NCBI GenBank assembly: GCA_964402035.1 | Contig: CAYOAM010000003.1 | Location: forward strand, 162,657-226,656 | Source of the DNA: an uncultured Candidatus Saccharibacteria bacterium | GTDB lineage: Bacteria; Patescibacteriota; Minisyncoccia; Phycocordibacterales; UBA918 | Reading direction: 5' to 3' | DNA: 64,000 bases | Shown: piece after piece, positions 21,479 through 33,737 of the stretch | Layout of the letters: each line of letters starts with the position of its first letter | How positions within the stretch are numbered: position 1 is the stretch's first letter | The notes under the pieces: model-generated | What the model saw: the letters and a program-made list of their open reading frames with translations, nothing else | Database searches by the model: none | Told to the model about the DNA's origin: nothing | Position numbers and translations under genes: made by a program

Positions 21479-22423
21479 ATGATTGCCCGCGTCTTCTCGG
21501 CACAGCCAGCGGTTCAAGGAGGACATGTGGTCACGATCGAAACAGACCTCGCGAGAGGTCTGTATTCGTTTACGGTCGTCGGCCTCCCGGACAAAGCCGT
21601 CGAAGAAGCGCGCGATCGCTTGAGCGCCGCTATAAAGAATTCCGGTTTTGAATCTCCCAAAAGCAAAAATCACAAAATTATTATTTCATTGGCGCCTGCA
21701 GATTTGCGCAAAGAAGGGCCGCTCTTTGATCTTCCGATGGCCGTGGGGTACTTGATCGCCGCACACGACATACAAGCATCGGTTGCAGACACGTTAATAA
21801 TCGGTGAACTTGCGCTCGATGGCACCATACGTGGCGTGCGTGGCGCATTGCCGATTGTTCAGGTAGCAAAGAATGCAGGGTTCAAAACGGTCATCGTACC
21901 AAAAGAAAATGCGCTCGAAGCAGCACTCGTGCCTGAGATTGAAATCATTGCAGCCGGCACCCTCCTTGATGTCGTACGACACCTTGATCACACAAGGGAA
22001 GATCATCAACTACTCACTCCAGAGCCTCACACAGACATTATTCCAACGTGGAGCGAGAGCACTATATATCTTGAAGATATCAAAGGACAGGAAAGTGCAA
22101 AGAGGGGACTCTTGATTGCCGCAGCAGGACGACACAACAGCATCATGATCGGTCCACCCGGCACGGGGAAAACGATGCTCGCGCGCGCATTTCAAAGTAT
22201 GTTGCCACCGCTCTCTATAGAAGAAGCGCTCGAAGTCACCGCGATACATTCAATAGCTGGCACGCGCGACGAACCGGTGATAACACTCCCTCCTTTTCGT
22301 GCACCACACCACACAGCTTCACACACTGCGCTCGTGGGTGGCGGTATGCATCCGCGACCTGGGGAAGTCACCCTCGCACATCGGGGCGTACTTTTCTTAA
22401 AGTCAGTCCCACAAAACGTTTAG
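21479..22423 (+). pseudogene. comM: comM (YifB/Mg-chelatase-like AAA+ ATPase) 5' fragment, interrupted at the Walker-B 'GVLFL' by an inserted element
   Basis: N-terminal Lon-protease-like domain ('LPDKAVEEARDRL') and Walker A 'GPPGTGKTM'. The ORF ends 'LAHRGVLFL|KSVPQNV*'. The expected continuation 'DEFPEF...' resumes at 33138. Confidence 0.85.
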
Positions 22424-22621
22424 TCTTTCTAGAAAAGGTGCTTCTCTTAATATTAAGTAGCGAATCTTTTTTGAGGTGATTTATACATTCAGTGTAATCA
22501 GTAGGTAACAGTTGGTAAAATAAGTCACATGTTAAATTGTAGGACACACTTTATGAAAACAGTCCTTCAATAATTTATTGAACCAAATCGATTTTTCGCC
22601 AAAAAATGCTATATTTAGGCG

Positions 22622-23551
22622 ATGGATGACATCATAAACAGATCGATTTTAAAGAATAAAGGTAAGCTTTTGTCATACTATAGAGAGCAGGCAGCAGAGC
22701 TTATAAAAGAACTCAGAAGAGTTTACTCTGACAGCGAATATCGAAAACGAGCCGTTGCTGTAAATAATGGTCTTACAAATTTGAGAAAATCTCTTATTTC
22801 TAATTTATTGGAAAAAGCGGAGACCGAGTCTTGGTCTGCTGAGGAGGTATTGTCTGGAGTACTACTGGTGACATATACCAACTATGTAGTAATGATGGAA
22901 TCCAGAAATGATGTTTGGCCGTATGAGTATATGGCTTTTGCTCGTAGAATTGGTGAGTTGTGGGAACCATTCTGTCAGTTATGTTGGGTACATCCCGTAA
23001 AGGCTGGCATTTCATACATTGAACCTCCTGTGTATTCACATGTTAAAAATCAGCTTTTAGACAATATCAAATCTTACGTTAATGACCTAAAGCTGGAAAA
23101 GGAACAAAAGGATGTTTTGTTAAATCATTATGAAACTATCTCTGCACTGGTTAGTTCTGGTGAAATAAATCTTGAGCTTGATTTACACTTTAAATCAGGC
23201 GGGAAAAAATATGTCGTTGATTTTAAAAGTGGCTTTAGTTCTAACGAGAAAGGTAACACCAATCGACTATTACTTGTTGCAAATATCTACAAATCCCTAA
23301 ACGAGGGATACAATTGCCTACTTTTTGTAAGGTCAAACGAAGAAATGAACAATCATTATCTTCAAACACTTAAAAAGTCTGGTCTATGGACAGTTTACTG
23401 TGGAGAAGAAACCTATAAAATAGTAAGTACATACACGGGTTTTGACCTAGCGTCGTGGATGAAAAAAAATATTAACTGGGCTGAAGACTTCGATGAGAAA
23501 ATGTATGCACATTTAAAGCAAAATCAATTGCTACAGTATTTAGAATGGTAG
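22622..23551 (+). CDS. Putative PD-(D/E)xK nuclease (candidate restriction endonuclease)
   Basis: 'ELDLHF...YVVDFKSG' fits a D...(D/E)xK catalytic core. Its 3' end overlaps the start of the methyltransferase gene by 7 nt. Confidence 0.4.
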   Translation: MDDIINRSILKNKGKLLSYYREQAAELIKELRRVYSDSEYRKRAVAVNNGLTNLRKSLISNLLEKAETESWSAEEVLSGVLLVTYTNYVVMMESRNDVWPYEYMAFARRIGELWEPFCQLCWVHPVKAGISYIEPPVYSHVKNQLLDNIKSYVNDLKLEKEQKDVLLNHYETISALVSSGEINLELDLHFKSGGKKYVVDFKSGFSSNEKGNTNRLLLVANIYKSLNEGYNCLLFVRSNEEMNNHYLQTLKKSGLWTVYCGEETYKIVSTYTGFDLASWMKKNINWAEDFDEKMYAHLKQNQLLQYLEW

Positions 23552-25044
23552 ATAAAATTATTCAAGGAAAAAAACGTACTCATAGACAATACGCTTCATA
23601 CTATACAGATTCTGAACCAATCTTGTCTTACATGGTACAAAAACTTAACGTCGCCGAAGGCGATGCAATTTTCGAACCTTGTGCTGGTGACGGTGCCTTT
23701 ATAGAAAAAATCTTTTCAAAAAATTCAAGTGATATTTCGATTCACGCTGTTGACCTAAACCCCATTGCTGTCAATAATCTGAAAGAAAGATTTTCTTCAG
23801 CGAACATACTAGTGGAACAGGTTGATACCTTGCTCGACCGCTCTGTGTTGACTAAAAAGTATTCAAAAATAATTGGCAATCCACCATACGGAGCTTGGCA
23901 AGATTTATCAAAAAGAGATGAATTAAAAAAAATATATGGAGGTTACGTAAAAGAAACGTACACTCTCTTCTTACAGAAGTGCATTGATTTGCTTGAAGAA
24001 AATGGAAAGCTGGTATTTATTATCCCAGATACTTTTCTTGCATTACATATGCATAAGGGAACCAGAGCGAAGATTCTAACCAAAACACGAGTCGAAGAAA
24101 TCCTGTTAATACCATCAAATTTCTTTCCTGGGGTTAATTTTGGTTATGCAAACCTCTGCATAATTACACTTGTTAAAAGTGAATCTGTGGCAGGTAATAC
24201 TATAAAGATTGCCTCGGTTAGAGACTCTGTTGAAAAGTTAACAACGCTTGCAAGTGGAGACTATTCTGAGTGTCATTCTTTGGAATCTCTTTTGCAAGAT
24301 GACGTTTTAAACTCAGAAAATCTTTCGTTTTTTATTGGAAGCAACGAATCATCAAGAAGCTTAATGAAAGAGGATGTTCTCAAACTTGGAGACATAGCGG
24401 ATTGTGTTACCGGTTTCTATTCAGGGGACAATAAGAAATACATCAGGGTTCTAAATAAGGACATTAAGAGGTCGAATGGCTACTCAATAGTAGATAGTAA
24501 AGAAGTCGAATATACCCATTTTCCAGCTGACATTTTAAAACAAGGATTGACGAAAAAAAGCTATATTCCGTACTTAAAAAATGCGATTGGTACTTTTTCA
24601 ATTGAGACCCAATGGTTCATTCAGTGGGACAAAAACACAGTTCAGGAATACAAAAAAGACAAACGAGCTCGATTCCAAAATTCTGAATTTTATTTCAAGG
24701 AAGGTATAGGAGTACCAATGATTAAAAGCAGTAATACACACGCAGTATTGTTAGAGAAAAGGTTGTTTGACCAGTCCGTTGTTGGGGTCTTCCCCAAAGA
24801 TTTGAAACATAGAGATTATCTGCTAGCTTTCCTCAACTCAAAAACTTGCAGTAAGTTACTAAACATTATTAATCATACGGCTAATAATTCCGCAAACTAT
24901 CTCAAAAAACTCCCTATCATCGTCAATGACGAGGGTGTAAAAGTGGTCAATAAAATAATGTCGAAATACTTTGAAAGTAAGGACAAAACCAAAGCTCTTG
25001 CAGAAATCGATGAATTCTTTACTAAACTCTACAATTTGGACTAA
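23545..25044 (+). CDS. N6-adenine DNA methyltransferase (gamma-class, NPPY motif)
   Basis: SAM-binding 'FEPCAGDGAF' (motif I) precedes 'IIGNPPYG' (motif IV), followed by a long C-terminal target-recognition region. Confidence 0.75.
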   Translation: MVDKIIQGKKRTHRQYASYYTDSEPILSYMVQKLNVAEGDAIFEPCAGDGAFIEKIFSKNSSDISIHAVDLNPIAVNNLKERFSSANILVEQVDTLLDRSVLTKKYSKIIGNPPYGAWQDLSKRDELKKIYGGYVKETYTLFLQKCIDLLEENGKLVFIIPDTFLALHMHKGTRAKILTKTRVEEILLIPSNFFPGVNFGYANLCIITLVKSESVAGNTIKIASVRDSVEKLTTLASGDYSECHSLESLLQDDVLNSENLSFFIGSNESSRSLMKEDVLKLGDIADCVTGFYSGDNKKYIRVLNKDIKRSNGYSIVDSKEVEYTHFPADILKQGLTKKSYIPYLKNAIGTFSIETQWFIQWDKNTVQEYKKDKRARFQNSEFYFKEGIGVPMIKSSNTHAVLLEKRLFDQSVVGVFPKDLKHRDYLLAFLNSKTCSKLLNIINHTANNSANYLKKLPIIVNDEGVKVVNKIMSKYFESKDKTKALAEIDEFFTKLYNLD

Positions 25045-25270
25045 CGAGGAGTCTATTTACTTTTCTTCAAAAAGAAATACTATTTACTGACAACTTAATA
25101 TAAATGACCTAACCCTCAGTCGTAAGATTGAGGTATGGTCGAAAACCGTTGAAGACAAACACCCCATTATCAGGGCGCGTCTTCAACGTTATAAGGGGAA
25201 ACTCTTATAGGACTTCGGTCCACCTGGTAGTGGGTTTTTTGTATCTCGTTACCAGAATCTTACTTATTTA

Positions 25271-25864
25271 ATGAATAGATTTATGAACGAGAAAACTAAC
25301 GTTTTGGATAAAAAAATACCATGGTGGGCTGGACTAGCATTTTTTATATTTGTTATAAGTACGTTACTGTACGGACTTTTAGGAGGCTTTTCTACAGCTT
25401 CGAAAGTTGAAGAAGTTTCAAAGGAAGAAGTTAAAACTGACCAGCCAGCCAAAGAACCAATAATACAAATTGCGACCTTGTACAACATTCCAATGTCGAA
25501 GTTGTCTGAGCAATTTACTGCCCCACTGAACAGTGCGGGGAATCTTGTTATAGATACCGATGAGTACAAGCTACTGATTGAAAGTAAAAACGGCGTGAAC
25601 TCAGACTATGTGGAAGTGCAACTCAAAGCTCTTGGTAGTTGTGCTAAATCTGGTGTACCCCGAAACAGTGATGAGGCACTGCAACTAGTAGGGTTGAAAC
25701 CGCAGCTAAAGGGTAACCCGACCAATCCTCCTGCTGGGATAGCGAATGGTGCGATTGAGTACTGTGACTATCCGAGTGATAAATTCTCCGTCGGTGCTTC
25801 ATGTATGTATGACGGTGGATATTACGATGTCAGCCTGTCTCCACGTACATATTGTGGCAACTAG
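25271..25864 (+). CDS. Hypothetical secreted/membrane-anchored Cys-containing protein
   Basis: N-terminal TM/signal segment (WWAGLAFFIFVISTLLYGLLGG). The C-terminal half contains 4 Cys. Confidence 0.45.
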   Translation: MNRFMNEKTNVLDKKIPWWAGLAFFIFVISTLLYGLLGGFSTASKVEEVSKEEVKTDQPAKEPIIQIATLYNIPMSKLSEQFTAPLNSAGNLVIDTDEYKLLIESKNGVNSDYVEVQLKALGSCAKSGVPRNSDEALQLVGLKPQLKGNPTNPPAGIANGAIEYCDYPSDKFSVGASCMYDGGYYDVSLSPRTYCGN

Positions 25865-26526
25865 GGTACGTTTAGTTGTCCAGAAAACGTTAGCTACGGC
25901 ATTCGATAGCGGAAAGGCGAGGTAATATACCAACCTCTGTAAAAGTTATTCACAGTCATTGAGTTACAGAACAATAATATTTTTTAGTCAAAAACCCTTA
26001 TTTAAAGGGGTTTTTTGCTTATAGCTTCTTCTATATACTTCCAGCTCCTTATAGATTTTTATAGATAATTACATCTTCTTCTACGTGTACGTCAAGACCA
26101 TCTAGGTGTAGTGTTCGGAGTAACAATGACTAATCAGCCAGAACAGAACATTGAGCATGGTCCCGCAGGTGTCGAATGGACACTTCTCTTTGGGAAGCTA
26201 CTGACCGATAAGTCAGCGTCGAAATTATCAAATAAATCTGAAACCGACACCGGCAATCAGATTGCAATCAAAACAAACAATGAAAACACTTATAACGAAG
26301 CAAACGAATTTAACCAAGTCACCTATAACTCTCGCTGACCTCGTGAACACTGGCTACGCTCATATCAGCACTGACATTAACAAAGCAAGAGAGAATATCG
26401 AACGATATGCAACTACCGCAGTTCGAGTGATTGCACCAAAGAATTGTAGAGATATAACAATCGACTTATCAAAACCTGACAAGCCGAGAGTGAGATACAA
26501 GATTACCAAGAATATGACGAGCTAGC

Positions 26527-27228
26527 ATGGCTAGAAAGAAAGTTCAGCAAAACGAAAGATTTCCTGGCTTTCCAAAAAGCATCAATCGTGGATTCTTTCG
26601 GTATCCAACAATTCTTGAAAAATACTGGTGTGACCTCGAAGGTTCTGAACAAAAGGTTTTAGACTACATCCTTCGTCAGACTAAGGGTTGGGGCAAGAAT
26701 TTTGACAAAATCAGCTTGTCTCAGTTTGCGAAAGGAAACGGAAAAAATACAAAGGGTGCAGGTATTAGTGAAACGCAGGCAGCTGCTGCGCTTAAAGCGC
26801 TGGAAGTGAAAGGCTACATAACAGTCGAACGACGAGCTAGAAAGACGAATGTTATTCACCTCAAGTATGACGAGACTGTCAGTGATAGTCCGAAGTGTAG
26901 CGATGAGATTCGAGAACTCATCATGCAATTTGAACCAGTCGCTAACCACTTAGTAAAGGACTACTTGGAAGATGAGCGTGAAATATCTGCTCTTGAAGAG
27001 CTTGTCACCTATTACGGCTACCATAAGGTGAGAGATTGTATCTCGGTACTCAGGGATTCAAACCCAGAGCAGTACATGCCTACGATAATCTCACCCAGAG
27101 ACCTCAGAACAAAGATGCCTAGTCTATTATCGGCTATTGCAACTATGCAGATAGAGCACGATACGTTTTGGCAGGTCAATCTAGATAATGATAGACGTTT
27201 CGTCTCGAAAATTGAAAAAATACTTTGA
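26527..27228 (+). CDS. Winged-helix protein, possible replication initiator / DnaD-like
   Basis: 'QKVLDYILRQTKGW...ISLSQFAKGNG...ISETQAAAALKALEVKGYITVER' resembles the N-terminal wHTH of phage/plasmid replication initiators. Confidence 0.35.
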   Translation: MARKKVQQNERFPGFPKSINRGFFRYPTILEKYWCDLEGSEQKVLDYILRQTKGWGKNFDKISLSQFAKGNGKNTKGAGISETQAAAALKALEVKGYITVERRARKTNVIHLKYDETVSDSPKCSDEIRELIMQFEPVANHLVKDYLEDEREISALEELVTYYGYHKVRDCISVLRDSNPEQYMPTIISPRDLRTKMPSLLSAIATMQIEHDTFWQVNLDNDRRFVSKIEKIL

Positions 27229-27493
27229 GGTGGTTAGGTGATTGGTACAAAAGTTGGATATCTGTATCACAACTGATACCAGGAAAAAGTGAAACTGTAC
27301 CAATCTGTTATCAGACAATAGATAGATAGGTATCTACAAAATTGTATATATTCACACTCACTTGAAAGTGAGTGTAGATAATTCTGGAAATAAGATTATT
27401 TAACGACCAGTAATTAAATAGGGAGTCCCTACCTCGCTTGTTAACAGTCACACTACACAACATATATACAAAGTTGTAAAGATATGGAATTAT

Positions 27494-27560
27494 ATAACTG
27501 AGAAACCGTTGTTTTAAGCCAAATTTCCGGCTGTGGCAACTACCCCTTCTCAGTTATATG
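27494..27560. repeat. 13-14-bp inverted repeats (TATATAACTGAGAA ... TTCTCAGTTATAT) separated by ~40 bp, upstream of the recombinase genes
   Basis: Read directly from the sequence. Candidate recombinase binding or crossover site. Confidence 0.5.
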
Positions 27561-27708
27561 AACCATATTGACGACATTAAAGACTACTTAATCGCAGATG
27601 AGATTCAGCGCATTCAGTCGTTGTCACATGAACAATTGGTTTGTGAACTGATTGAAGTGAAAACACGAGATATAGAGCTGGGCAAAATCACCATTAACAC
27701 TAACGTAC

Positions 27709-28128
27709 ATGGAAACTAAGAAAACACTAATTATTAACTCAAAGAGCTTGAACGGGTTGCGCTACTTCGGCATAACTAAAAAGTGTATCGAACATTGCCA
27801 GACACAAAAATGGGCTATCGAACCCGATAACATTCATAGCGAAATAAACCTCACTCCTTACGTAGAGTATGAAGGGGTACCTGAGAACGAACCAGTCTAC
27901 ATGATTGAAAAAAATAGAGTTGCGTGTCTGCTCACTTATTCAATCGAAAGCCTTGGTCTATCACTACGTGAACTGCTAGAACTCATGCATTTACTTGAAA
28001 AGCATGAGGTGAGGCTCGTCTCAGTAACTGAGAAACTAGAACCCGACACTCATTCGGGAAGACTGAGGATTCACCTAGCCGCAATAACCGCTGAGTTTCG
28101 ACGTGCGGATAATGCTAACTATCTATGA
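27709..28128 (+). CDS. Resolvase-like catalytic-domain remnant lacking the Ser nucleophile region
   Basis: 'LSLRELLELMHLLEKHEVRLVSVTEKLEPDTHSGRLRIHLAAITAEFRRAD' matches the C-terminal half of a serine-recombinase catalytic domain. There is no 'RVSTxxQ' motif. It overlaps the start of the next gene by 4 nt. Confidence 0.5.
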   Translation: METKKTLIINSKSLNGLRYFGITKKCIEHCQTQKWAIEPDNIHSEINLTPYVEYEGVPENEPVYMIEKNRVACLLTYSIESLGLSLRELLELMHLLEKHEVRLVSVTEKLEPDTHSGRLRIHLAAITAEFRRADNANYL

Positions 28129-29882
28129 ATGACCCAGCTACTGTAAAGAACAAACGTGTTGCTATATACCTCCGTGTCTCCACTGACGAACAGGCTAAGG
28201 AGGGTCACTACGGTTTGAAAGTTCAAGAAGATAGACTTCGACAGTTTTGTGCCAGCCAAGGTTACGAACTCAGTGAAGAACATGTTTACCGTGACGAGGG
28301 CTACTCTGGGACTCTTAAAGTTGAAATGCGACCTGGTCTATCTGCCCTGTATGAAGCAGCAAGGGAAAAACAGTTTGACACGTTGATTGTCTACAAACTC
28401 GATAGACTATTTCGTAATCAAACCAAGCTACTAGTATCACTTGAACAGCTCATAGATTATGGCGTAGGTTTCCAATCAGCAACGCAGTCGTTCGATACGG
28501 ATACATCAACAGGTCGTCTCATGATGCAAATTCTGGGTTCCTTTGCTGAACACGAGCGAGAACTGATTCGTGAACGAATGACAGCCGGTAAACTTCGCGC
28601 AGCTAAAGAGGGTAAATGGGTCACTGGTGTTCCGCCTTACGGATATCGAGTTGACGAAAAAACACAAACACTCATTCCACAAGCTGAAGAAGCTGAGGTT
28701 GTCCAGAAATTCTACGAGTGGTTGGTTTATGAAAAATGCTCTCTGCGTGAAATCACTAAGCGTGCAATAGAACAAAACCTACCGACCCCGAAGCACAAGA
28801 ACGCGAAGGGTAAGAATAGAGTTGGCGGAAAATGGTACAAACGAACCATTAATCGAATTCTGGTCAATGAAGTTTATACAGGTCAGTTTTACTACAACAA
28901 GTACAAACGACCATTCCAATACCTGAATGCTGTACTGGACGAACAACATCAACGACCACAAGAAGACCATATTCTTATCACTGTTCCAGCAATCATTTCA
29001 TCCGATTTGTTTGAGAAGTCGATACAGCAACTGCAAGACAATCGTCGATTCCAAAAACGAAACGAGAAGCGTGTCTACCTGTTTGCTGGACTACTCTATT
29101 CAGGAATATCGGGACGTAAGTTGCAAAGTGGTTATCAAACACCCAAAAAGGATAAGACAACCCCGATTCTAGGGAAGTACTACCATGTATACGTTCCAGA
29201 CATAGACAGGAAACCTACTGATTGCGATAAAAATAACCCTGAAGGGCAATGTGCTGAAAGTCGATTGATTCCTATTTGGGATACGTTGGTCGCGATACTG
29301 AGCGACCCGAAGAACGTAATACCGCAACTGGAAGAGTACACCTTTAAGACCAGCAACGAGGTCAAAGTGAAGAAGGAGTTAGTGCTACTCGAAAAGCAAT
29401 TCGAGACACTTAGAGTAAAGAAGCAACGTGTTCAAGAAGTGTATCTGGAAGCACAAATGGATAAGGACGACTACAACAGTCGGATGAAGCAAGTGAGAAA
29501 GGACGAAAAGGATATAGTCATCCAGAAACAGAAACTGTCACAACTACTCCTAAAACAAGATGAACAAAAAGACCGAGATAAAATCATTCAATCACTCTAC
29601 GGCAGACTAAAAGCCAGAATCAGTAACGTGACCTACGAGGAAAAGCAATACATTCTTCGTTTGTTTGTCGAAAAGATTACTTTACACCACAAGAAAGGAT
29701 ATGCGGAGGTAGCATTCAAGTTCCCACTAAACACGAATGTTCCAACCACTGCACCTGCCAGCATGACAGAGGGTAGGCATATGCGACTGGTACTGCATGT
29801 GAAGATTTATTCTGAAAAAGAACGACGAATTCAAATCTTTCAAAGTGTTCCAGAGATGTGTAAAAAACCAGTAGCAGTATAG
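28125..29882 (+). CDS. Large serine recombinase (integrase)
   Basis: N-terminal 'VAIYLRVSTDEQ' resolvase catalytic domain, a recombinase domain, and a C-terminal coiled-coil/zinc-ribbon-like region. 585 aa. Confidence 0.85.
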   Translation: MNDPATVKNKRVAIYLRVSTDEQAKEGHYGLKVQEDRLRQFCASQGYELSEEHVYRDEGYSGTLKVEMRPGLSALYEAAREKQFDTLIVYKLDRLFRNQTKLLVSLEQLIDYGVGFQSATQSFDTDTSTGRLMMQILGSFAEHERELIRERMTAGKLRAAKEGKWVTGVPPYGYRVDEKTQTLIPQAEEAEVVQKFYEWLVYEKCSLREITKRAIEQNLPTPKHKNAKGKNRVGGKWYKRTINRILVNEVYTGQFYYNKYKRPFQYLNAVLDEQHQRPQEDHILITVPAIISSDLFEKSIQQLQDNRRFQKRNEKRVYLFAGLLYSGISGRKLQSGYQTPKKDKTTPILGKYYHVYVPDIDRKPTDCDKNNPEGQCAESRLIPIWDTLVAILSDPKNVIPQLEEYTFKTSNEVKVKKELVLLEKQFETLRVKKQRVQEVYLEAQMDKDDYNSRMKQVRKDEKDIVIQKQKLSQLLLKQDEQKDRDKIIQSLYGRLKARISNVTYEEKQYILRLFVEKITLHHKKGYAEVAFKFPLNTNVPTTAPASMTEGRHMRLVLHVKIYSEKERRIQIFQSVPEMCKKPVAV

Positions 29883-29886
29883 GCCG

Positions 29887-30507
29887 TTAATCTTGCTTAT
29901 TAAGTGAGTGGATGACGGCCTTTGCTATACCTACAATTTCGAAGGAATCTGATTTTTTAATTTTCAGGTCTTTATATTCAGGATTGCTAGATCGAAGTAT
30001 TATTTCATTACTCTCCTTAATAACCTTTTTTATTTTAGGTTCACCGTTGTGTAGTACTAACGAAAGTTGGCCTGGAGAATCTAAGGTTTCATCCTTCTGA
30101 AACAGAACTAAGTCACCAGAGTTAATGTTTGGAGACATTGAGTCACCTTTTGCTAACACCGCAAAGATAGAGCTGGGGTCAGAGATATTAAACATCTTTG
30201 TAGATATAGAAATCTTTTCTTCGAGGTTAGACTCACTTACCAAGTCACTAGCATGACCGCAGGAAGCCATTCCATACCTACTGATGGTAACGACATCTTC
30301 TACAGGGCTTTTCAAAACCTCAAAAGTTGAGTTGTCGCCTCTTCGGAGGTAGCCCTTATTTTCTAATTGACGTAAATGGTGAGCCACATTCTGTGCGCTA
30401 CCAAGGTCAGCCTCTTTTGCAATTTGCCAAAGACTCATCTCAGACAAGGCTTCTTCATTTTCAATCAAAAAATTCAGCAGCTTTTGCTGGCTGGGGTGTA
30501 ATTGCAT
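29887..30507 (-). CDS. LexA/CI-like repressor (S24 peptidase family)
   Basis: N-terminal LexA-type winged helix ('SQQKLLNFLIENEEALSEMSLWQIAKEADL...VAHHLRQLENKGYL') and a C-terminal S24 domain ('GDSMSPNINSGDLVLF', Lys in 'KIKKV'). Confidence 0.75.
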   Translation of the reverse strand: MQLHPSQQKLLNFLIENEEALSEMSLWQIAKEADLGSAQNVAHHLRQLENKGYLRRGDNSTFEVLKSPVEDVVTISRYGMASCGHASDLVSESNLEEKISISTKMFNISDPSSIFAVLAKGDSMSPNINSGDLVLFQKDETLDSPGQLSLVLHNGEPKIKKVIKESNEIILRSSNPEYKDLKIKKSDSFEIVGIAKAVIHSLNKQD

Positions 30508-30744
30508 AACAAGAGCAGTATATATGACAGGGAGACATTTGTACACACTTTATTAACAGGAAACGAAACATTTGACGTTTTCCACCGCTACCGTACAATA
30601 GTACGAAGAAAGCCAGCTTGCGCTGACTTTCGAACGAATATTATTCCTCTTCAGGTTAGTGTAACACCACTTTCCTGAAGGTCCGACCGACTGGTCTTAC
30701 TTTACATAGTATTCCAGTTGGGCGGGCTAATCAAGTATTGGCCT

Positions 30745-30963
30745 ATGCGTAAGTATTACGTAAACCACAACGAACAGCCGGAGGGAGAACATGAGGTACA
30801 TGACTGGAATGCGAATTGCTCGCACCCACCACTCATGCAAAATCGTGTTGACCTCGGTTATCACACCACGTGCCGTGGTGCAATCTTTGAGGCACAAAAA
30901 CTTTATCCGCACTCACATGTAAACGGTTGCGCTTACTGTGTTCCAGACTGTAACTCTGACTAG
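30745..30963 (+). CDS. Small Cys/His-rich protein (possible Zn-binding), divergent from the repressor
   Basis: ~72 aa with C/H spaced as H..H..C..H...C...H.H..C..C..C. Confidence 0.35.
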   Translation: MRKYYVNHNEQPEGEHEVHDWNANCSHPPLMQNRVDLGYHTTCRGAIFEAQKLYPHSHVNGCAYCVPDCNSD

Positions 30964-30965
30964 TT

Positions 30966-31169
30966 ATGGCTCAATACGAACGCAACTCCGGCAAACGCTG
31001 GACAGTGAAAGAGGAAAAGCAACTCCGTTCTCTAGCAAAGGACAACACACCGACACGTGTCATTGGGTTGAAACTTGGCCGCCCTGTAGGGGGAGTGCAA
31101 GCTAAAGCACAAGAACTGGACGTGAGTCTGAAACCAACCAATCAGTCTCCGTACAATCGAAAGAAGTAG
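30966..31169 (+). CDS. Small basic hypothetical protein
   Basis: 67-aa ORF immediately following. Confidence 0.3.
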   Translation: MAQYERNSGKRWTVKEEKQLRSLAKDNTPTRVIGLKLGRPVGGVQAKAQELDVSLKPTNQSPYNRKK

Positions 31170-31374
31170 CAGAACCTTTACAGAGCATAATAGAATCCCT
31201 GCTTGTCAGGGGTTTTGTTATCATTGTGGGACAACTTTCCTAATAGTTGTCCTCCAGTTTATAAGATTTTGAACCCCAAATACTGCCATCTATCGACTTT
31301 TCCGTCATTGGTGGTATTTTTGTTTTACGTGCTATGACGCAAAAACGCCAAGTACCTAAGGAAAAAATCCAAAT

Positions 31375-32586
31375 ATGTGGGTTATCGTTAATGGAACATA
31401 CTCAACCGAGATTGAGGATAGCGTTGTTGAACGTGTTCTTAACCTATACCCAGAAGAGCGGCTTCTGAAACGTAAAGTATTTCAAAGTGCTTTTGCAACA
31501 GGTTCTATCAAACTGTCTGACCTAAAAGATGAATGCGATAAACTACTCATCCCATGGCAGATGTTCCTACTGGATACAGAAAACCACAAGAAGCAAATTG
31601 AACATATTGAAAAGACCAGAGCTGATAAGATTTCAGCTCGACTTCTGGCTAAACGAAAGGGTTCTGGTGATGTTACTTCAAAACGCATTGTAGACCGACT
31701 TATTCGCTTGCAAGGTTTTGTTTCAGCAACAACCTCACTACCGAACAATCCCTATTGCGATTCGCTGAAGAGCAAGAGTGTAAAAGTGGCCGCAAAGCAT
31801 GTAATCGACTATTTCAAAATTGACCAAAACTGGTTCTGGTCAACTCGTGGGAAAGGAACAGCGTTGTCAAAACTAATTTCTTTGGTAGAAGCAAAAAATA
31901 TCAATGTGTGTCAGGGTGTTCTCCAGAATAAAATGCTACCCCATCACTCTGTTGTAGCCGGTGATGTATATAAAAATACCAGCGGTTTTTCTATTAAGGA
32001 CGACAAGGTACCATTTGTATTTTTGCCGAGTGAAATCAACCCTGATGAGGTTGAGAGTCGTCAAATTTTTACACTTATATATCTCTTGGTAATTATTGGT
32101 CTTGGTAAGTATGACTACTACCTAGAGAAGGATTTTAGTACCAAAATGGTAGGAACAGACCGAATCTCTCGCAGAATTTTCGATATTACAACAGAAATTC
32201 TAATCCCCGAATCGGAAACTGATAAGTTGCGAAGTAAGACAATCACGGTATCTATGCGTGACGAGTTGGCGAGTAAGTTTAAAGTCTCACCATCAGCTCT
32301 TATTACCACTTTGCGAATCAGAAAAATAATTACTAAACCAGAATACAACGCATTAATGCCAGAGAAATATAAGCCTGGTACAAGAAAGTCTGGTCCAATG
32401 AATACTCAAAAAATTTCAACTTCAGTACAGAAATTCTGTGGACGAATTGCCGTAACTCACGTCAATGAAGGAATCAGAAAAGGTGGAAGGGGTGGAGGGG
32501 TTGAAAGTATTCAAGCGCAGTACATGCTTTTTGGTGCTGTAAACAAACCGCACTACCATGACTACCGTAAACAAATGGGACTATGA
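31375..32586 (+). CDS. Hypothetical protein (403 aa), partner of the downstream PIN-like gene
   Basis: Clean ORF that overlaps the next gene by 4 nt (ATGA). Confidence 0.45.
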   Translation: MWVIVNGTYSTEIEDSVVERVLNLYPEERLLKRKVFQSAFATGSIKLSDLKDECDKLLIPWQMFLLDTENHKKQIEHIEKTRADKISARLLAKRKGSGDVTSKRIVDRLIRLQGFVSATTSLPNNPYCDSLKSKSVKVAAKHVIDYFKIDQNWFWSTRGKGTALSKLISLVEAKNINVCQGVLQNKMLPHHSVVAGDVYKNTSGFSIKDDKVPFVFLPSEINPDEVESRQIFTLIYLLVIIGLGKYDYYLEKDFSTKMVGTDRISRRIFDITTEILIPESETDKLRSKTITVSMRDELASKFKVSPSALITTLRIRKIITKPEYNALMPEKYKPGTRKSGPMNTQKISTSVQKFCGRIAVTHVNEGIRKGGRGGGVESIQAQYMLFGAVNKPHYHDYRKQMGL

Positions 32587-33023
32587 ATCTAATTGACACT
32601 GTTGGTATCAATCACATTTTTGAAAAATCTCTTAAAATGAGTGAGGTTTATTATCTTGCTCCAGACATTTCTGAGGAAGTCGAGATGACAGAAATGATTC
32701 ACAGTAAACGCATCCCTGATGAGGTCAGATACGCAGCAGAGGTTGATGAATTTGATGAGTCAGTATATTTGCACCATTACAAAATTGCACTGAACTCCTA
32801 TAAAAAACGGTCATTCTATAACATGAAAGGATTTGGTGATGTATCAATTATTGCTACAGTGAAAACAATTCTAGATGGATATAAAAAACAGGATACTGAA
32901 CAGCTTTTTTCAACAAAAGAACCAGTCATTGTTTATACTGGTGATACAAACCTTACAGAAGTCTTAAATGCTGAATTTGATAGCTCGGACGTGCAGGTAA
33001 AAGGGATTGCCGACATTAAATAG
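32583..33023 (+). CDS. PIN-like domain protein
   Basis: 'MNLIDTVGINHIF' N-terminus and acidic residues spaced as in PIN domains (D5, E~35, D~96 'FGDVSI', D~121 'TGDTNL'). Confidence 0.4.
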   Translation: MNLIDTVGINHIFEKSLKMSEVYYLAPDISEEVEMTEMIHSKRIPDEVRYAAEVDEFDESVYLHHYKIALNSYKKRSFYNMKGFGDVSIIATVKTILDGYKKQDTEQLFSTKEPVIVYTGDTNLTEVLNAEFDSSDVQVKGIADIK

Positions 33024-33134
33024 ACGATTCCAACTGGGTGACTGTTGTTGCAGTATCTGTTCCTCAGTTTTGGCGCACTGAGTTGAGTAACAGTTATTGT
33101 AGAAGGTGTCCTACAAAATTGAGGGACAATAACA

Positions 33135-33737
33135 TTGGATGAATTTCCTGAATTTGACCGAAGATCAATTGATACGTTGCGCCAACCGCTTGAAGATAAA
33201 GTAGTTTCAATATCGCGCGTACATGGACAGGCAACATTTCCAGCAGACTTCACCCTCGTTGCCGCTATGAACCCCCATCGTGGTACCCACGATGGCAGTG
33301 ACCCGAGTGACAGCATGCTCGATGCATACAAAAAGAAAATTTCAGGGCCCATCATGGACCGCATCGACCTTTGGCTCACTGTTTCACATATACCGTATGA
33401 GGAACTCGCACAAAATGAGAAGCATATCGATCAAAATCGTGACGAAACCAAACGCGCACGAGAACAGGTACAGGATGCACGTCTCAAACAACGGCAACGC
33501 TACGGAGTTGCAACAAAAACAAACGGTGTGCTCTCTGCGCGAGATATTGAGATACATGTGCGCTTGGCGAAAGAAACAGAAACACTACTCATTGAATCTG
33601 CCAAAAAACTAGCACTCTCTCCGCGCGGCTACCACAGACTCATAAAAGTCGCCCGCACTATCGCAGATTTAGAGGGCGCAGATGATATTAAAACCACGCA
33701 CGTCCTCGAGGCGCTCCAATACCGCGCTCGGATATGA
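33135..33737 (+). pseudogene. comM: comM 3' fragment (Mg-chelatase C-terminal domain)
   Basis: It begins '(L)DEFPEFDRRSIDTLRQPLEDKVVSISR...', the direct continuation of ComM after Walker B. Confidence 0.85.

What the first reader, a model, noticed from the sequence alone, without database searches (positions are those of the whole stretch)
31375..33023. Overlapping two-gene module (403-aa unknown plus PIN-like 146-aa) at the element's right end
The two genes overlap by 4 nt. The downstream protein has PIN-like acidic-residue spacing (LIDT..., FGDVSI, TGDTNL). The upstream 403-aa protein has no motif I recognise and is far larger than a typical antitoxin. Positioned next to the comM junction on a mobile element, this is a reasonable candidate for an uncharacterised toxin-antitoxin or anti-phage defence pair.
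Basis: inference. Interest (0 to 1): 0.6.

Follow-up and report, generated by a model that had tools for sequence, protein, structure and literature searches.

The report
Dead-protease partner plus PIN nuclease module
Two overlapping genes at the edge of a mobile element encode a small PIN-type nuclease and a large partner built on a zinc-protease fold that has lost its catalytic site, which looks like a new variant, largely confined to ultra-small (CPR) bacteria, of a known toxin-antitoxin/phage-defence gene-pair design.

Summary
ORFs 31375-32586 (403 aa) and 32583-33023 (146 aa) overlap by ATGA at the right end of a ~10.7-kb serine-recombinase island that splits comM.

The 146-aa protein is a PIN-like nuclease. 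D5/E32/D86/D121 are invariant in 41 non-redundant orthologues. The AF2 model's best PDB matches are PIN domains, and one orthologue passes Pfam PIN_4.

The 403-aa protein does have a recognisable fold. Residues ~116-384 are homologous to ImmA/IrrE (peptidase M78) partners of PIN toxins (hhalign 95-97%; Foldseek CapP prob 0.99). However, HExxH and the third zinc ligand are replaced in every family member, and the usual N-terminal HTH was not detected.

The pair is tightly linked. In 52 of 53 testable loci the PIN gene follows directly, almost always with ATGA, and the two proteins' divergences correlate (r = 0.90).

Contexts are mostly mobile elements or defence islands, including one copy inside a type I R-M operon.

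Best reading: a toxin-antitoxin/abortive-defence module of the COG2856-PIN (RosmerTA-like) kind, in which a pseudo-protease restrains the nuclease by binding. Function is inferred, not tested. I rate it a new variant of a known kind, of moderate interest.

The parts
31375..32586 (+). Gene for the 403-aa ImmA/IrrE-fold pseudo-peptidase, the proposed antitoxin/sensor.
   Evidence: ORF. There are 206 homologue clusters, mostly from Patescibacteria. AF2 gives pLDDT 87.6 and pTM 0.88. The top Foldseek PDB hit is CapP 7t5t, prob 0.99. hhalign against canonical M78 proteins gives Prob 95.3%, and against the Burkholderia HTH-ImmA/IrrE protein Prob 97.0%.
31375..31779 (+). N-terminal domain (about residues 1-135) of unassigned fold. 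It occupies the place of the Xre HTH found in canonical partners.
   Evidence: It does not align to the Burkholderia HTH region. It has no Pfam hit and no PDB sequence hit. The AF2 secondary structure is a beta-hairpin followed by five helices.
31651..31713 (+). Invariant basic motif KRKGSGDVTSKRIVDRLIRLQ (residues 93-113); role unknown.
   Evidence: R94, G98, S102, R104, D107, R108 and Q113 are invariant in 55 sequences. pLDDT is below 50 at residues 95-98.
31780..32331 (+). M78 (ImmA/IrrE)-like domain, residues 136-319, with the catalytic site lost.
   Evidence: hhalign aligns residues 136-319 to the whole canonical M78 domain, E = 2.3e-8. The Pfam Peptidase_M78 hit is sub-threshold at 17.9 bits against a cutoff of 22. 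Similar sub-threshold hits occur in four divergent orthologues.
32068..32106 (+). Helix FTLIYLLVIIGLG (residues 232-244), the counterpart of the FT(I/L)xHELxH zinc-binding helix. H becomes Y236, E becomes L237, and the second H becomes I240 (or D247 in the gapped alignment).
   Evidence: Two independent hhalign alignments. None of the 51 full-length family members has HExxH, nor do the two most distant ones.
32332..32583 (+). C-terminal helical domain (residues 320-403), shared with canonical HTH-ImmA partners of DUF4411.
   Evidence: The hhalign alignment extends to residue 384, matching residue 376 of the Burkholderia 391-aa protein. Helices span residues 347-401.
32583..32586 (+). ATGA stop/start overlap, implying translational coupling.
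   Evidence: Sequence. The same junction is present in 51 of 53 testable loci.
32583..33023 (+). Gene for the 146-aa PIN-like nuclease, the proposed toxin/effector. Active-site codons are D5 (32595-32597), E32 (32676-32678), D86 (32838-32840) and D121 (32943-32945).
   Evidence: ORF. D5, E32, N71, D86 and D121 are invariant in 41 of 41 non-redundant orthologues. AF2 gives pLDDT 88.4. The Foldseek PDB top hits are PIN-like: HARP/PRORP 7e8j, Rrp44 PIN 6md3 (prob 0.97, TM 0.50) and Dis3 PIN. An orthologue passes Pfam PIN_4. The family has only 93 representatives among 1.84 billion proteins.
22398..33136 (.). Context: a ~10.7-kb integrative island inserted in comM. The module is its rightmost cargo.
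   Evidence: comM halves and island genes by Pfam, the GC dip, and the Walker-B split GVLFL|DEFPEF. A related element at the same site is seen in L073-L075.

Best explanation
The two genes form one obligate, translationally coupled module of the 'COG2856/ImmA-type partner + PIN toxin' kind (RosmerTA-like toxin-antitoxin/abortive-defence modules). It travels as cargo of mobile elements and defence islands, mainly in Patescibacteria (CPR).

The 146-aa protein is a metal-dependent PIN-type nuclease, closest to PIN_4/Dis3-type and so probably an RNase, with an intact Asp-Glu-Asp-Asp site. It would be the growth-arresting effector.

The 403-aa protein is a full-length homologue of the HTH-ImmA/IrrE partners of PIN toxins, but it has lost the HExxH motif and the third zinc ligand, and it has a different N-terminal domain. 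It cannot act by proteolysis. The inference is that it holds the nuclease inactive by direct binding (type II-like neutralisation) and releases it when the complex is disturbed, for example by loss of the element or by a phage-derived trigger.

Shown here: gene anatomy, homologies, loss of catalytic residues, obligate linkage, and co-divergence.
Inferred: nuclease activity, toxicity, neutralisation by binding, and a stabilisation or defence role.
For: PIN identity:
- The acidic tetrad and N71 are invariant in 41 of 41 pairs.
- The AF2 model's best PDB matches are PIN domains.
- Orthologue L020 passes Pfam PIN_4.

Partner identity:
- Foldseek hits CapP with prob 0.99.
- hhalign gives 95.3% against canonical M78 and 97.0% over residues 116-384 against a Burkholderia ImmA/IrrE protein. 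That protein sits upstream of a DUF4411 PIN gene, also with an ATGA overlap.
- There are weak RmrA and capP PADLOC hits.

Dead active site:
- No HExxH in any of the 51+2 members examined, and the ligand positions are Y, L, I and S/R.

Linkage:
- 52 of 53 loci carry the PIN gene directly downstream, 51 of them with ATGA.
- Even the most remote PIN representatives keep the partner.
- Pairwise identities of the two proteins correlate, r = 0.90.

Context:
- comM island with a serine recombinase.
- Serine-recombinase homologues within a few kb of the pair in about 8 distinct loci.
- One copy inside a type I R-M operon.
- One copy beside SMODS, RadC and TrwB-like genes.
- One copy in an AlpA/VapE/integrase island.
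- Copies beside Panacea and PIN/Phd TA modules and transposases.

Distribution:
- Found in 19 of 185,579 species genomes by the pattern scan, so it is accessory.

Literature:
- COG2856/DUF955 + PIN operons are predicted TA systems (PMC2701414; PMC5499597).
- ImmA-domain antitoxins were confirmed as such in RosmerTA defence systems (PMC10440598).
Against: - There are no experimental data on toxicity, binding or defence.
- Four loci have the 400-aa gene split by a 1-nt indel while the PIN gene is intact. If these indels are real, the nuclease is tolerated without its partner. They lie in A-runs and may be sequencing errors.
- One copy lies between housekeeping genes.
- No DNA-binding domain was detected for the autoregulation typical of type II antitoxins.
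- PIN_4-type domains also occur in non-toxin RNA-processing enzymes.
- The PDB fold matches for the PIN model are weak (best E = 4.8e-3, TM at most 0.50).
- The window protein itself hits no PIN profile.
- No phage or viral-contig copies were found, and no enrichment test against control loci was run.
Confidence: 0.6

Rival explanations
1. The pair is part of the element's own regulatory circuit, an ImmR/ImmA-, DdrO/IrrE- or CapH/CapP-like anti-repressor switch. In this reading the 403-aa protein controls the neighbouring LexA/S24-type repressor, and so excision, and the PIN protein is accessory.
For: The protein is homologous to ImmA/IrrE/CapP regulators. A repressor gene (29887-30546, minus strand) and a serine recombinase lie just upstream. 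ImmA controls ICE excision in Bacillus (PMC10440598; 10.1101/2022.04.27.489752).
Against: All catalytic and zinc-binding residues are missing, so it cannot cleave a repressor. The LexA-like gene and the 67-aa ORF are not conserved with the pair; only one other locus has a LexA-like gene. The pair also occurs without any recombinase or repressor, for example inside an R-M operon or between housekeeping genes. No adjacent Xre-type substrate gene is conserved.
Confidence: 0.1
2. The pair is a non-toxic RNA-processing or RNA-turnover nuclease with a dedicated scaffold or specificity subunit, a lineage-specific accessory function in CPR bacteria and not an addiction or defence module.
For: The PIN protein is closest to PIN_4 and Dis3/Rrp44-type PIN domains and to HARP RNase P, all of which are RNA-processing enzymes. 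One locus is flanked by housekeeping genes. Loci with a frameshifted partner and an intact PIN gene would be tolerable under this model.
Against: Occurrence is rare and patchy (19 species genomes; 93 representatives). The module sits in a low-GC island. It is repeatedly placed in integrative elements, R-M operons and TA clusters. The partner is homologous to antitoxin-type ImmA proteins.
Confidence: 0.12
3. A pure addiction (post-segregational killing) module that stabilises the integrative element, with no role in phage defence.
For: It sits at the very edge of the comM island. Serine-recombinase homologues lie near the pair in about 8 distinct loci. The operon anatomy is classical TA.
Against: This cannot be separated from the defence reading with sequence data. 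The copy embedded in a type I R-M operon and the copy next to SMODS look more like defence-island cargo. The large, well-folded partner (pTM 0.88) is unlike a labile antitoxin.
Confidence: 0.15

Closest known systems
HTH-ImmA/IrrE (COG2856, DUF955, Peptidase_M78) + DUF4411 PIN-like gene pairs. These are predicted three-component TA systems (Makarova 2009, PMC2701414; Matelska 2017, PMC5499597). Comparator read here: Burkholderia stagnalis NZ_CP156686.1, 391 aa + 174 aa.
   Same: Both have a gene of about 390-400 aa upstream and a PIN-like gene of about 150-175 aa downstream, overlapping by ATGA. The large proteins are homologous over the M78 domain and the C-terminal domain: hhalign Prob 97%, 248 columns, residues 116-384 matching 117-376. 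The NCBI names of the comparator pair are 'ImmA/IrrE family metallo-endopeptidase' and 'DUF4411 family protein'.
   Different: The comparator keeps HELAH and the downstream Glu, and Matelska et al. state that PIN-associated DUF955 retains HEXXH. The window family has Y-L-x-x-I instead and no ligand Glu. The comparator has an N-terminal region that looked HTH-like to me by eye (not profile-tested), whereas the window protein's N-terminal ~115 aa do not align to it and hit no HTH profile. The PIN partners are not detectably related: the window family gave no DUF4411 Pfam hit, and hhalign of A3 against the DUF4411 protein found nothing.
RosmerTA (RmrT/RmrA) anti-phage toxin-antitoxin systems (Millman 2022; Ernits 2023, PMC10440598).
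   Same: Both are two-gene modules in which an ImmA-type protein of about 360-400 aa is paired with a variable toxin. PADLOC RmrA models hit the window protein (E = 2.5e-4 to 9e-4) and 14 of 55 family members; one alignment spans residues 81-347 against profile positions 69-298 of 357. NetFlax notes that the ImmA hub is also associated with PIN-like domains.
   Different: The hits are weak and would not be called by PADLOC. RmrA is described as a Zn-peptidase that often has an N-terminal HTH, and neither feature is present here. No RmrT or other PADLOC model matches the PIN protein. Rosmer-type antitoxins swap toxin partners, whereas here partner and PIN are strictly co-inherited (r = 0.90).
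CapP, IrrE and ImmA metalloprotease regulators (CapH/CapP of CBASS, DdrO/IrrE, ImmR/ImmA).
   Same: CapP (7t5t) is the best structural match in the PDB, with prob 0.99 and 204 columns. The capP PADLOC model hits 6 of 55 members, best E = 2.2e-6. They share the M78 domain followed by an HTH-like linker helix pair (VSPSAL...RL motif).
   Different: Those proteins are active proteases; in CapP the site is H96/E97/H100/E129. They cleave an adjacent Xre-type repressor and carry a C-terminal GAF domain. The window protein lacks the catalytic residues, has no conserved adjacent Xre gene, and has different N- and C-terminal domains.
VapBC and other PIN-toxin type II TA systems; Pfam PIN_4 (PF13638).
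   Same: Bicistronic operon with the antitoxin gene first, a 4-nt overlap, a PIN protein of about 145 aa with the four-acid active site, and a mobile, patchy distribution. Orthologue L020 is a PIN_4 member by Pfam's own threshold.
   Different: The partner is 403 aa, well folded, with no RHH/AbrB/Phd/HTH DNA-binding domain detected. There is no similarity to a VapC-type PF01850 protein by hhalign. The PIN family is a small separate cluster of 93 representatives with no profile link to other PIN families.

Membership tests
PIN domain-like superfamily (closest Pfam family: PIN_4, PF13638) | Three-layer alpha/beta/alpha fold with a parallel beta-sheet | tested here: met
   The AF2 model has pLDDT 88.4 and alternating beta/alpha elements. 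The Foldseek PDB list is headed by PIN-like nucleases: HARP/PRORP 7e8j (E = 4.8e-3), Rrp44 PIN 6md3 (prob 0.97, TMq 0.50) and Dis3 PIN 6d6q/9g8n. The scores are modest.
PIN domain-like superfamily (closest Pfam family: PIN_4, PF13638) | Four conserved acidic active-site residues (D after beta1, E in helix 2, D, D) | tested here: met
   D5, E32, D86 and D121 are invariant in 37 sequences down to 24% identity, in 41 of 41 non-redundant orthologues, and in the two most remote members.
PIN domain-like superfamily (closest Pfam family: PIN_4, PF13638) | Profile-HMM match to a curated PIN family above its threshold | tested here: inconclusive
   The window protein has no Pfam, NCBIfam or PADLOC hit. 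Of 37 family members, only orthologue L020:2912-3355 matches PIN_4, at 24.8 bits against a gathering score of 21.9, over its full length. Membership therefore rests on transitivity.
PIN domain-like superfamily (closest Pfam family: PIN_4, PF13638) | Metal-dependent nuclease activity | not testable with these tools
   Needs biochemistry.
DUF4411 (PF14367), the usual PIN partner of HTH-ImmA proteins | Sequence or profile similarity to DUF4411 | tested here: not met
   No PF14367 hit for any of 37 members at E up to 10. hhalign of A3 against the Burkholderia DUF4411 protein gave no alignment.
Peptidase M78 / ImmA/IrrE (COG2856, PF06114) | Homology to the M78 domain fold | tested here: met
   hhalign gives Prob 95.3%, E = 2.3e-8 over the whole domain, and Prob 97.0%, E = 1.2e-10 against a bona fide ImmA/IrrE protein. 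Foldseek hits CapP with prob 0.99. JGI names the 94%-identical protein 'Zn-dependent peptidase ImmA (M78 family)'.
Peptidase M78 / ImmA/IrrE (COG2856, PF06114) | HExxH zinc-binding/catalytic motif | tested here: not met
   The aligned positions are Y236, L237 and I240. The motif is absent from all 51 full-length members and from the two most distant ones.
Peptidase M78 / ImmA/IrrE (COG2856, PF06114) | Third zinc ligand: a Glu about 25-30 residues downstream, in the E-x-x-A-N/D motif before LLxP | tested here: not met
   The aligned positions are S265 or R267; the family columns are variable or basic. The CapP reference ligands are H96, H100 and E129.
Peptidase M78 / ImmA/IrrE (COG2856, PF06114) | Pfam gathering threshold | tested here: not met
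   17.9 bits against a cutoff of 22 for the window protein, and 15.6-17.6 bits for four divergent orthologues.
RosmerTA (RmrT/RmrA) | Antitoxin carrying a Zn-peptidase (ImmA) domain, detected by RmrA models | tested here: inconclusive
   There are weak RmrA hits (E = 2.5e-4 for the window protein; 14 of 55 members at E up to 0.01). The domain is present but catalytically dead.
RosmerTA (RmrT/RmrA) | N-terminal HTH on the antitoxin (frequent, not universal) | tested here: not met
   No HTH family hit for 24 N-terminal domains at E up to 10 and no PDB sequence hit. A fold comparison of the isolated domain was not possible.
RosmerTA (RmrT/RmrA) | Toxicity of RmrT, neutralisation by RmrA, and phage defence | not testable with these tools
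   Needs experiments.
Type II toxin-antitoxin systems (VapBC-like) | Adjacent co-directional genes, usually overlapping, inherited together | tested here: met
   There is an ATGA overlap. 52 of 53 loci carry the PIN gene downstream. The two proteins co-diverge, r = 0.90.
Type II toxin-antitoxin systems (VapBC-like) | Small antitoxin with a DNA-binding domain and a toxin-binding tail | tested here: not met
   The partner is 403 aa and compact (pTM 0.88). No DNA-binding family was detected.
Type II toxin-antitoxin systems (VapBC-like) | Patchy distribution on mobile elements or in defence islands | tested here: met
   Six of the seven distinct contexts read carry recombinase, integrase, R-M, TA or conjugation genes within about 5 kb; the two remote copies lie beside Panacea-type TA genes and, transposases. 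This is not a controlled enrichment test.
ImmR/ImmA, DdrO/IrrE, CapH/CapP regulatory pairs | An active metalloprotease that cleaves an adjacent Xre-type repressor | tested here: not met
   The catalytic residues are absent. No conserved adjacent Xre gene exists, and the neighbouring LexA/S24 repressor and 67-aa ORF are not conserved with the pair.

The most novel reading that the evidence does not exclude
The 403-aa protein may be an immune sensor built from a dead protease. It would keep the substrate-binding cleft of an ImmA/IrrE peptidase but use it only to recognise a protein or peptide, for example a phage product or a host damage signal. Binding would release or activate the tightly co-evolving PIN nuclease. 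That would be a non-proteolytic, decoy-substrate mode of triggering abortive infection in genome-reduced CPR bacteria. It would also imply that ImmA-type 'antitoxins' in RosmerTA-like systems in general need the scaffold and not the catalysis.
Probability: 0.2. Interest if true: 0.7.

Novelty: new variant of a known kind. Interest (0 to 1): 0.45.

Why it matters
ImmA/IrrE-domain proteins are a hub 'antitoxin' in many toxin-antitoxin and anti-phage systems (RosmerTA, COG2856-PIN, COG2856-RelE). How they restrain their toxins is unknown. The standing hypothesis is that they act by cleaving an HTH domain or protein.

Here a whole natural family, with at least 206 clusters at 90% identity, has discarded every catalytic and zinc-binding residue and the recognisable HTH. 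Even so, it stays welded to an intact PIN nuclease through deep divergence. If the pair is a working TA or defence module, proteolysis is dispensable for this design. The pair would then be a clean model for asking what the M78 scaffold does.

It would also add a lineage-typical accessory or defence module to Patescibacteria, whose small genomes are poor in recognised defence systems.

If it turns out to be a non-toxic RNA-processing enzyme, it is still an example of a pseudo-enzyme acting as a nuclease partner.

Tried and rejected
A1 was used instead.

Searches with no useful result:
- Foldseek of the PIN model against viral structures gave nothing.
- The 146-aa protein had no Pfam, PADLOC or NCBIfam hit, and only a PHROG hit at E = 0.045.
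- Ten remote PIN-family representatives had no PIN-family Pfam hit, only scattered chance hits at E of 0.03 or above.
- hhalign of the PIN alignment found no similarity to a single VapC-type PF01850 protein or to a single DUF4411 protein. Single-sequence templates are weak tests.
- Profile searches against PDB sequences found nothing for either protein.
- tblastn against GenBank phages and the IMG/VR scan found no relatives, so there is no evidence that the pair is phage-borne.
- PLSDB gave only the distant Burkholderia ImmA/IrrE hit, which became the canonical comparator.
- Promoter and terminator scans found no more sites than shuffled sequence.
- Rfam found nothing.
- Upstream palindromes are conserved only in the closest relative.

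Ideas considered and dropped:
- The upstream 67-aa ORF or the LexA-like repressor as a third component: neither is conserved with the pair.
- The discrepancy of 33 PIN homologues against 206 partner homologues as a sign of partner swapping: it reflects the sensitivity of the word-indexed search. Locus-by-locus inspection shows the PIN gene in 52 of 53 loci.
- Split partner genes with an intact PIN gene as a refutation of the antitoxin role: the splits are single-base indels in A-runs, so this stays unresolved and is not decisive.
Full report
**1. Observation**

The stop of the first and the start of the second share ATGA at 32583-32586.

They are the last genes of a low-GC island, with GC 0.35-0.44 against 0.47-0.50 outside it. 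The island interrupts comM. The 5' ORF (21479-22423) carries ChlI plus Mg_chelatase profile positions 2-116. The 3' ORF (33135-33737) carries positions 112-206 plus Mg_chelatase_C. The break lies inside the Walker-B box, GVLFL | DEFPEF.

The island also encodes:
- a 585-aa large serine recombinase,
- a partial resolvase ORF,
- a LexA/S24-type repressor,
- a Phage_rep_O-like protein,
- an Eco57I/N6_Mtase/TaqI_C methyltransferase.

A related element sits at the same site in other metagenomes (L073-L075).

**2. The 146-aa protein is a PIN-like nuclease**

No curated profile matches the window protein itself. The wider evidence is as follows.

- The word-indexed search found 33 homologues. A full HMMER profile search of 1.84 billion representatives found 93. 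It is a small, separate family of proteins of about 145 aa.
- I added divergent positional orthologues taken from related loci, down to 24% identity. The only invariant columns were then D5, E32, N71, G83, D86, D121 and L124.
- In 41 non-redundant orthologues, D5, E32, N71, D86 and D121 are 41/41. The two most remote members keep all four acids. This is the PIN acidic tetrad in the expected order.
- The AF2 model is confident (pLDDT 88.4, pTM 0.84) and alternates beta and alpha elements.
- Its best PDB matches are PIN-type nucleases: HARP/PRORP, the Rrp44 PIN domain (prob 0.97, TM 0.50) and Dis3 PIN. The E-values are weak, 5e-3 to 0.2.
- One positional orthologue (L020:2912-3355, from a Saccharibacteria MAG) matches Pfam PIN_4 over its full length, at 24.8 bits against a gathering score of 21.9.

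The PIN call therefore survives a profile test by transitivity. The family is not DUF4411, and it shows no similarity to a VapC-type PIN.

**3. The 403-aa protein is an ImmA/IrrE (M78) homologue with a dead active site**

*Homology.*
- Direct scans give only sub-threshold hits: Pfam Peptidase_M78 at 17.9 bits against a cutoff of 22 (residues 221-310), PADLOC RmrA at E = 2.5e-4, and phrog_2439 'transcriptional regulator' at E = 3.4e-11.
- Four divergent orthologues give the same sub-threshold M78 hit.
- Among 55 family members, 14 hit RmrA models and 6 hit capP.
- The AF2 model is confident (pLDDT 87.6, pTM 0.88). Its only meaningful PDB match is CapP (7t5t), the IrrE-like protease that regulates CBASS, with prob 0.99 over 204 columns.
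- I built an alignment of 12 canonical M78 proteins, seeded from a 160-aa HELGH gene found in locus L019. Profile-profile comparison with the family gave Prob 95.3%, E = 2.3e-8, with residues 136-319 covering the whole M78 domain.
- A tblastn search of PLSDB turned up a Burkholderia stagnalis gene pair. NCBI names its products 'ImmA/IrrE family metallo-endopeptidase' (391 aa) and 'DUF4411 family protein' (174 aa). These two genes also overlap by ATGA.
- hhalign of the family against that 391-aa protein gave Prob 97.0%, E = 1.2e-10, over 248 columns (residues 116-384 matching 117-376).

The window protein is therefore a near full-length homologue of the canonical upstream partner of PIN toxins.

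*Loss of the active site.*
- In both alignments the HExxH helix (FT[IL]xHELxH) is matched by FTLIYLLVIIG. H becomes Y236, E becomes L237, and the second H becomes I240, or D247 in the gapped version.
- The downstream ligand Glu (E-x-x-A-N/D ... LLxP) is matched by S265 or R267.
- None of the 51 full-length family members from the fetched loci has HExxH, including those only 31-38% identical. Neither do the partners of the two most remote PIN proteins.
- For reference, CapP uses H96/H100/E129 for zinc and E97 for catalysis. Matelska et al. state that PIN-associated DUF955 domains retain HEXXH.

*The other domains.*
- The N-terminal ~115-135 residues do not align to the comparator's N-terminal region, which I read by eye as HTH-like.
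- They hit no Pfam family and no PDB sequence.
- They contain an invariant basic motif, KRxGxGxVTSKRIIDRLIRxQ, of unknown role.

**4. Linkage**

I scanned GTDB species genomes and JGI metagenomes with the partner alignment. This returned 19 and 44 loci respectively.

- Of 53 loci with at least 140 nt beyond the partner's stop codon, 52 carry a PIN-family ORF directly downstream, and 51 have ATGA at the junction.
- The exceptions are a truncated copy (L017) and a degenerate locus (L065). L061 has a 2-nt gap.
- The reverse also holds. PIN proteins looked up by identity always have the 398-447-aa partner upstream, including representatives at E = 4e-6 and 4e-4.
- Pairwise identities of the two proteins across 41 non-redundant pairs correlate at r = 0.90. 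The PIN protein diverges faster; for example, it is 42% identical where the partner is 53% identical.
- I saw no partner swapping within this family. That differs from the promiscuity described for ImmA-hub antitoxins.

**5. Context and distribution**

Of the 19 GTDB loci, 14 are labelled as Patescibacteria/CPR lineages (Paceibacteria, Saccharibacteria, Kaiserbacteria, Parcubacteria). Four carry other labels, and one is unclassified. I did not resolve whether the four are mis-binned or reflect horizontal transfer.

Neighbourhoods read through precomputed Pfam annotation:
- the comM island with a serine recombinase (window; L073-75),
- a serine recombinase plus an HTH-Panacea TA and N4/N6 methylases,
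- an AAA_16 gene, a PIN/Phd TA, DUF2290 with a helicase, and ParB,
- a position between hsdS and hsdR of a type I R-M operon, with the hsdS stop overlapping the partner's start,
- SMODS, DUF6602, RadC and TrwB-like genes,
- an AlpA/VapE-primase/tyrosine-integrase island,
- Panacea TA genes and transposases,
- one copy between housekeeping genes.

Serine-recombinase homologues lie within a few kb of the pair in about 8 distinct loci. No copies were found in GenBank phages or IMG/VR. This pattern fits mobile cargo of the TA or defence type, but I ran no control-locus enrichment test.

**6. Mechanism**

The best-supported reading (confidence about 0.6) is a two-gene toxin-antitoxin/abortive-defence module of the COG2856-PIN (RosmerTA-like) kind.

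- The PIN protein is the effector. It is probably an RNase, given its nearest relatives.
- The large protein is its restraining partner.
- Because the metalloprotease site is absent throughout the family, the published model cannot apply. That model has the protease cleave an HTH antitoxin to free the toxin.
- The partner must instead work by binding.
- Translational coupling would set the stoichiometry.

Which surface contacts the PIN active site is not known. The candidates are the basic motif, the vestigial substrate cleft, and the C-terminal helices.

Rival readings are less likely but not excluded:
- an element-regulation switch,
- a non-toxic RNA-processing enzyme with a scaffold subunit,
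- a pure addiction module.

The main unexplained point concerns four loci where a single-base indel in an A-run splits the partner gene while the PIN gene stays intact. L073 and L074 differ by that one base in 1.4 kb. If these indels are real, the nuclease is tolerated without its partner.

**7. Comparison and novelty**

*What it works like:* HTH-ImmA/IrrE + DUF4411 pairs and RosmerTA.

*Membership:* it is homologous to M78 but fails the family's defining catalytic features, so it is a pseudo-peptidase. It is a PIN-like protein nearest to PIN_4, not DUF4411 and not VapC. It is not called as RosmerTA by PADLOC models.

I rate it a new variant of a known kind. In my literature searches I found no description of a catalytically dead ImmA-type partner family or of this CPR module, but the held library is not exhaustive.

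**8. Verdict**

- Observation: confirmed.
The PIN call and the conserved pairing are right. 'No motif' and 'too large for an antitoxin' are wrong.
- Interest: moderate, 0.45. The design is known. The systematic loss of the protease site in a strictly co-inherited pair is the new and testable point.

Noticed in passing
window 21479-22423 and 33135-33737 (island ~22398-33136): comM is interrupted exactly within its Walker-B box (GVLFL | DEFPEF) by a ~10.7-kb low-GC element. The element carries a large serine recombinase, a LexA/S24 repressor, a Phage_rep_O-like gene and an Eco57I/TaqI_C-type methyltransferase. No long direct repeat flanks it; the longest shared word near the ends is 9 nt.
   Followed up: partly
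L073:1-93 (gene runs off the locus): In a related comM-inserted element, the gene caller reports a 977-aa product that joins the comM N-terminal domains (Lon_C, ChlI, Mg_chelatase) to N6_Mtase/Eco57I. The element's methyltransferase may be read there as an in-frame fusion with the interrupted comM. In the window, the comM 5' ORF ends with a stop at 22423.
   Followed up: no
window 27709-28128 and 28125-29882: A 139-aa ORF with only the C-terminal half of a Resolvase domain overlaps, again by ATGA, the start of the 585-aa large serine recombinase. It could be a recombinase remnant or a small accessory (directionality-factor-like) gene.
   Followed up: no
L076:2606-12776: One copy of the pair sits between hsdS and hsdR of a type I restriction-modification operon. 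The hsdS stop overlaps the partner gene's start, and an unknown 290-aa gene lies between the PIN gene and hsdR.
   Followed up: partly
L016, L043, L047, L073 (partner gene): The 400-aa gene is split by single-base indels in A-runs while the PIN gene is intact. L073 and L074 differ by one inserted A in 1.4 kb. This could be sequencing error, population variation or phase variation, and it bears on whether the nuclease is lethal without its partner.
   Followed up: partly
L019:2893-3375: A canonical 160-aa ImmA/IrrE gene (HELGH; Pfam M78 at 65.9 bits) lies 1.6 kb upstream of the pseudo-M78/PIN pair in a Saccharimonadales MAG. An active and a dead M78 protein therefore coexist in one neighbourhood.
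   Followed up: partly
L083:2437-4133 (Burkholderia stagnalis NZ_CP156686.1, about 150612-152308): A canonical ImmA/IrrE (391 aa, HELAH) + DUF4411 (174 aa) pair with the same ATGA overlap. It is unannotated in the PLSDB gene table but named in NCBI protein records. I used it as the comparator.
   Followed up: yes
L005, L010, L011, L017: Four of the 19 species-genome loci carry non-CPR labels (FCPU426, Methylophilus, Flavobacteriaceae, Rhizomicrobium). The Rhizomicrobium copy is truncated and lacks the PIN gene. This could be mis-binning of CPR contigs or horizontal transfer.
   Followed up: no
window 31229-31252 and 31334-31341: A perfect palindrome, GGACAACT-N8-AGTTGTCC, lies about 125 nt upstream of the operon and is conserved only in the closest relative. 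An octamer, TGACGCAA, is conserved 35-60 nt upstream of the start codon in the window, L074, L023 and L024. Either could be an operator or promoter element.
   Followed up: partly
L065:1000-4468: A degenerate locus with two diverged partial copies of the partner gene in opposite orientation and only a 44-aa PIN fragment. It appears to be a decaying or rearranged module.
   Followed up: no
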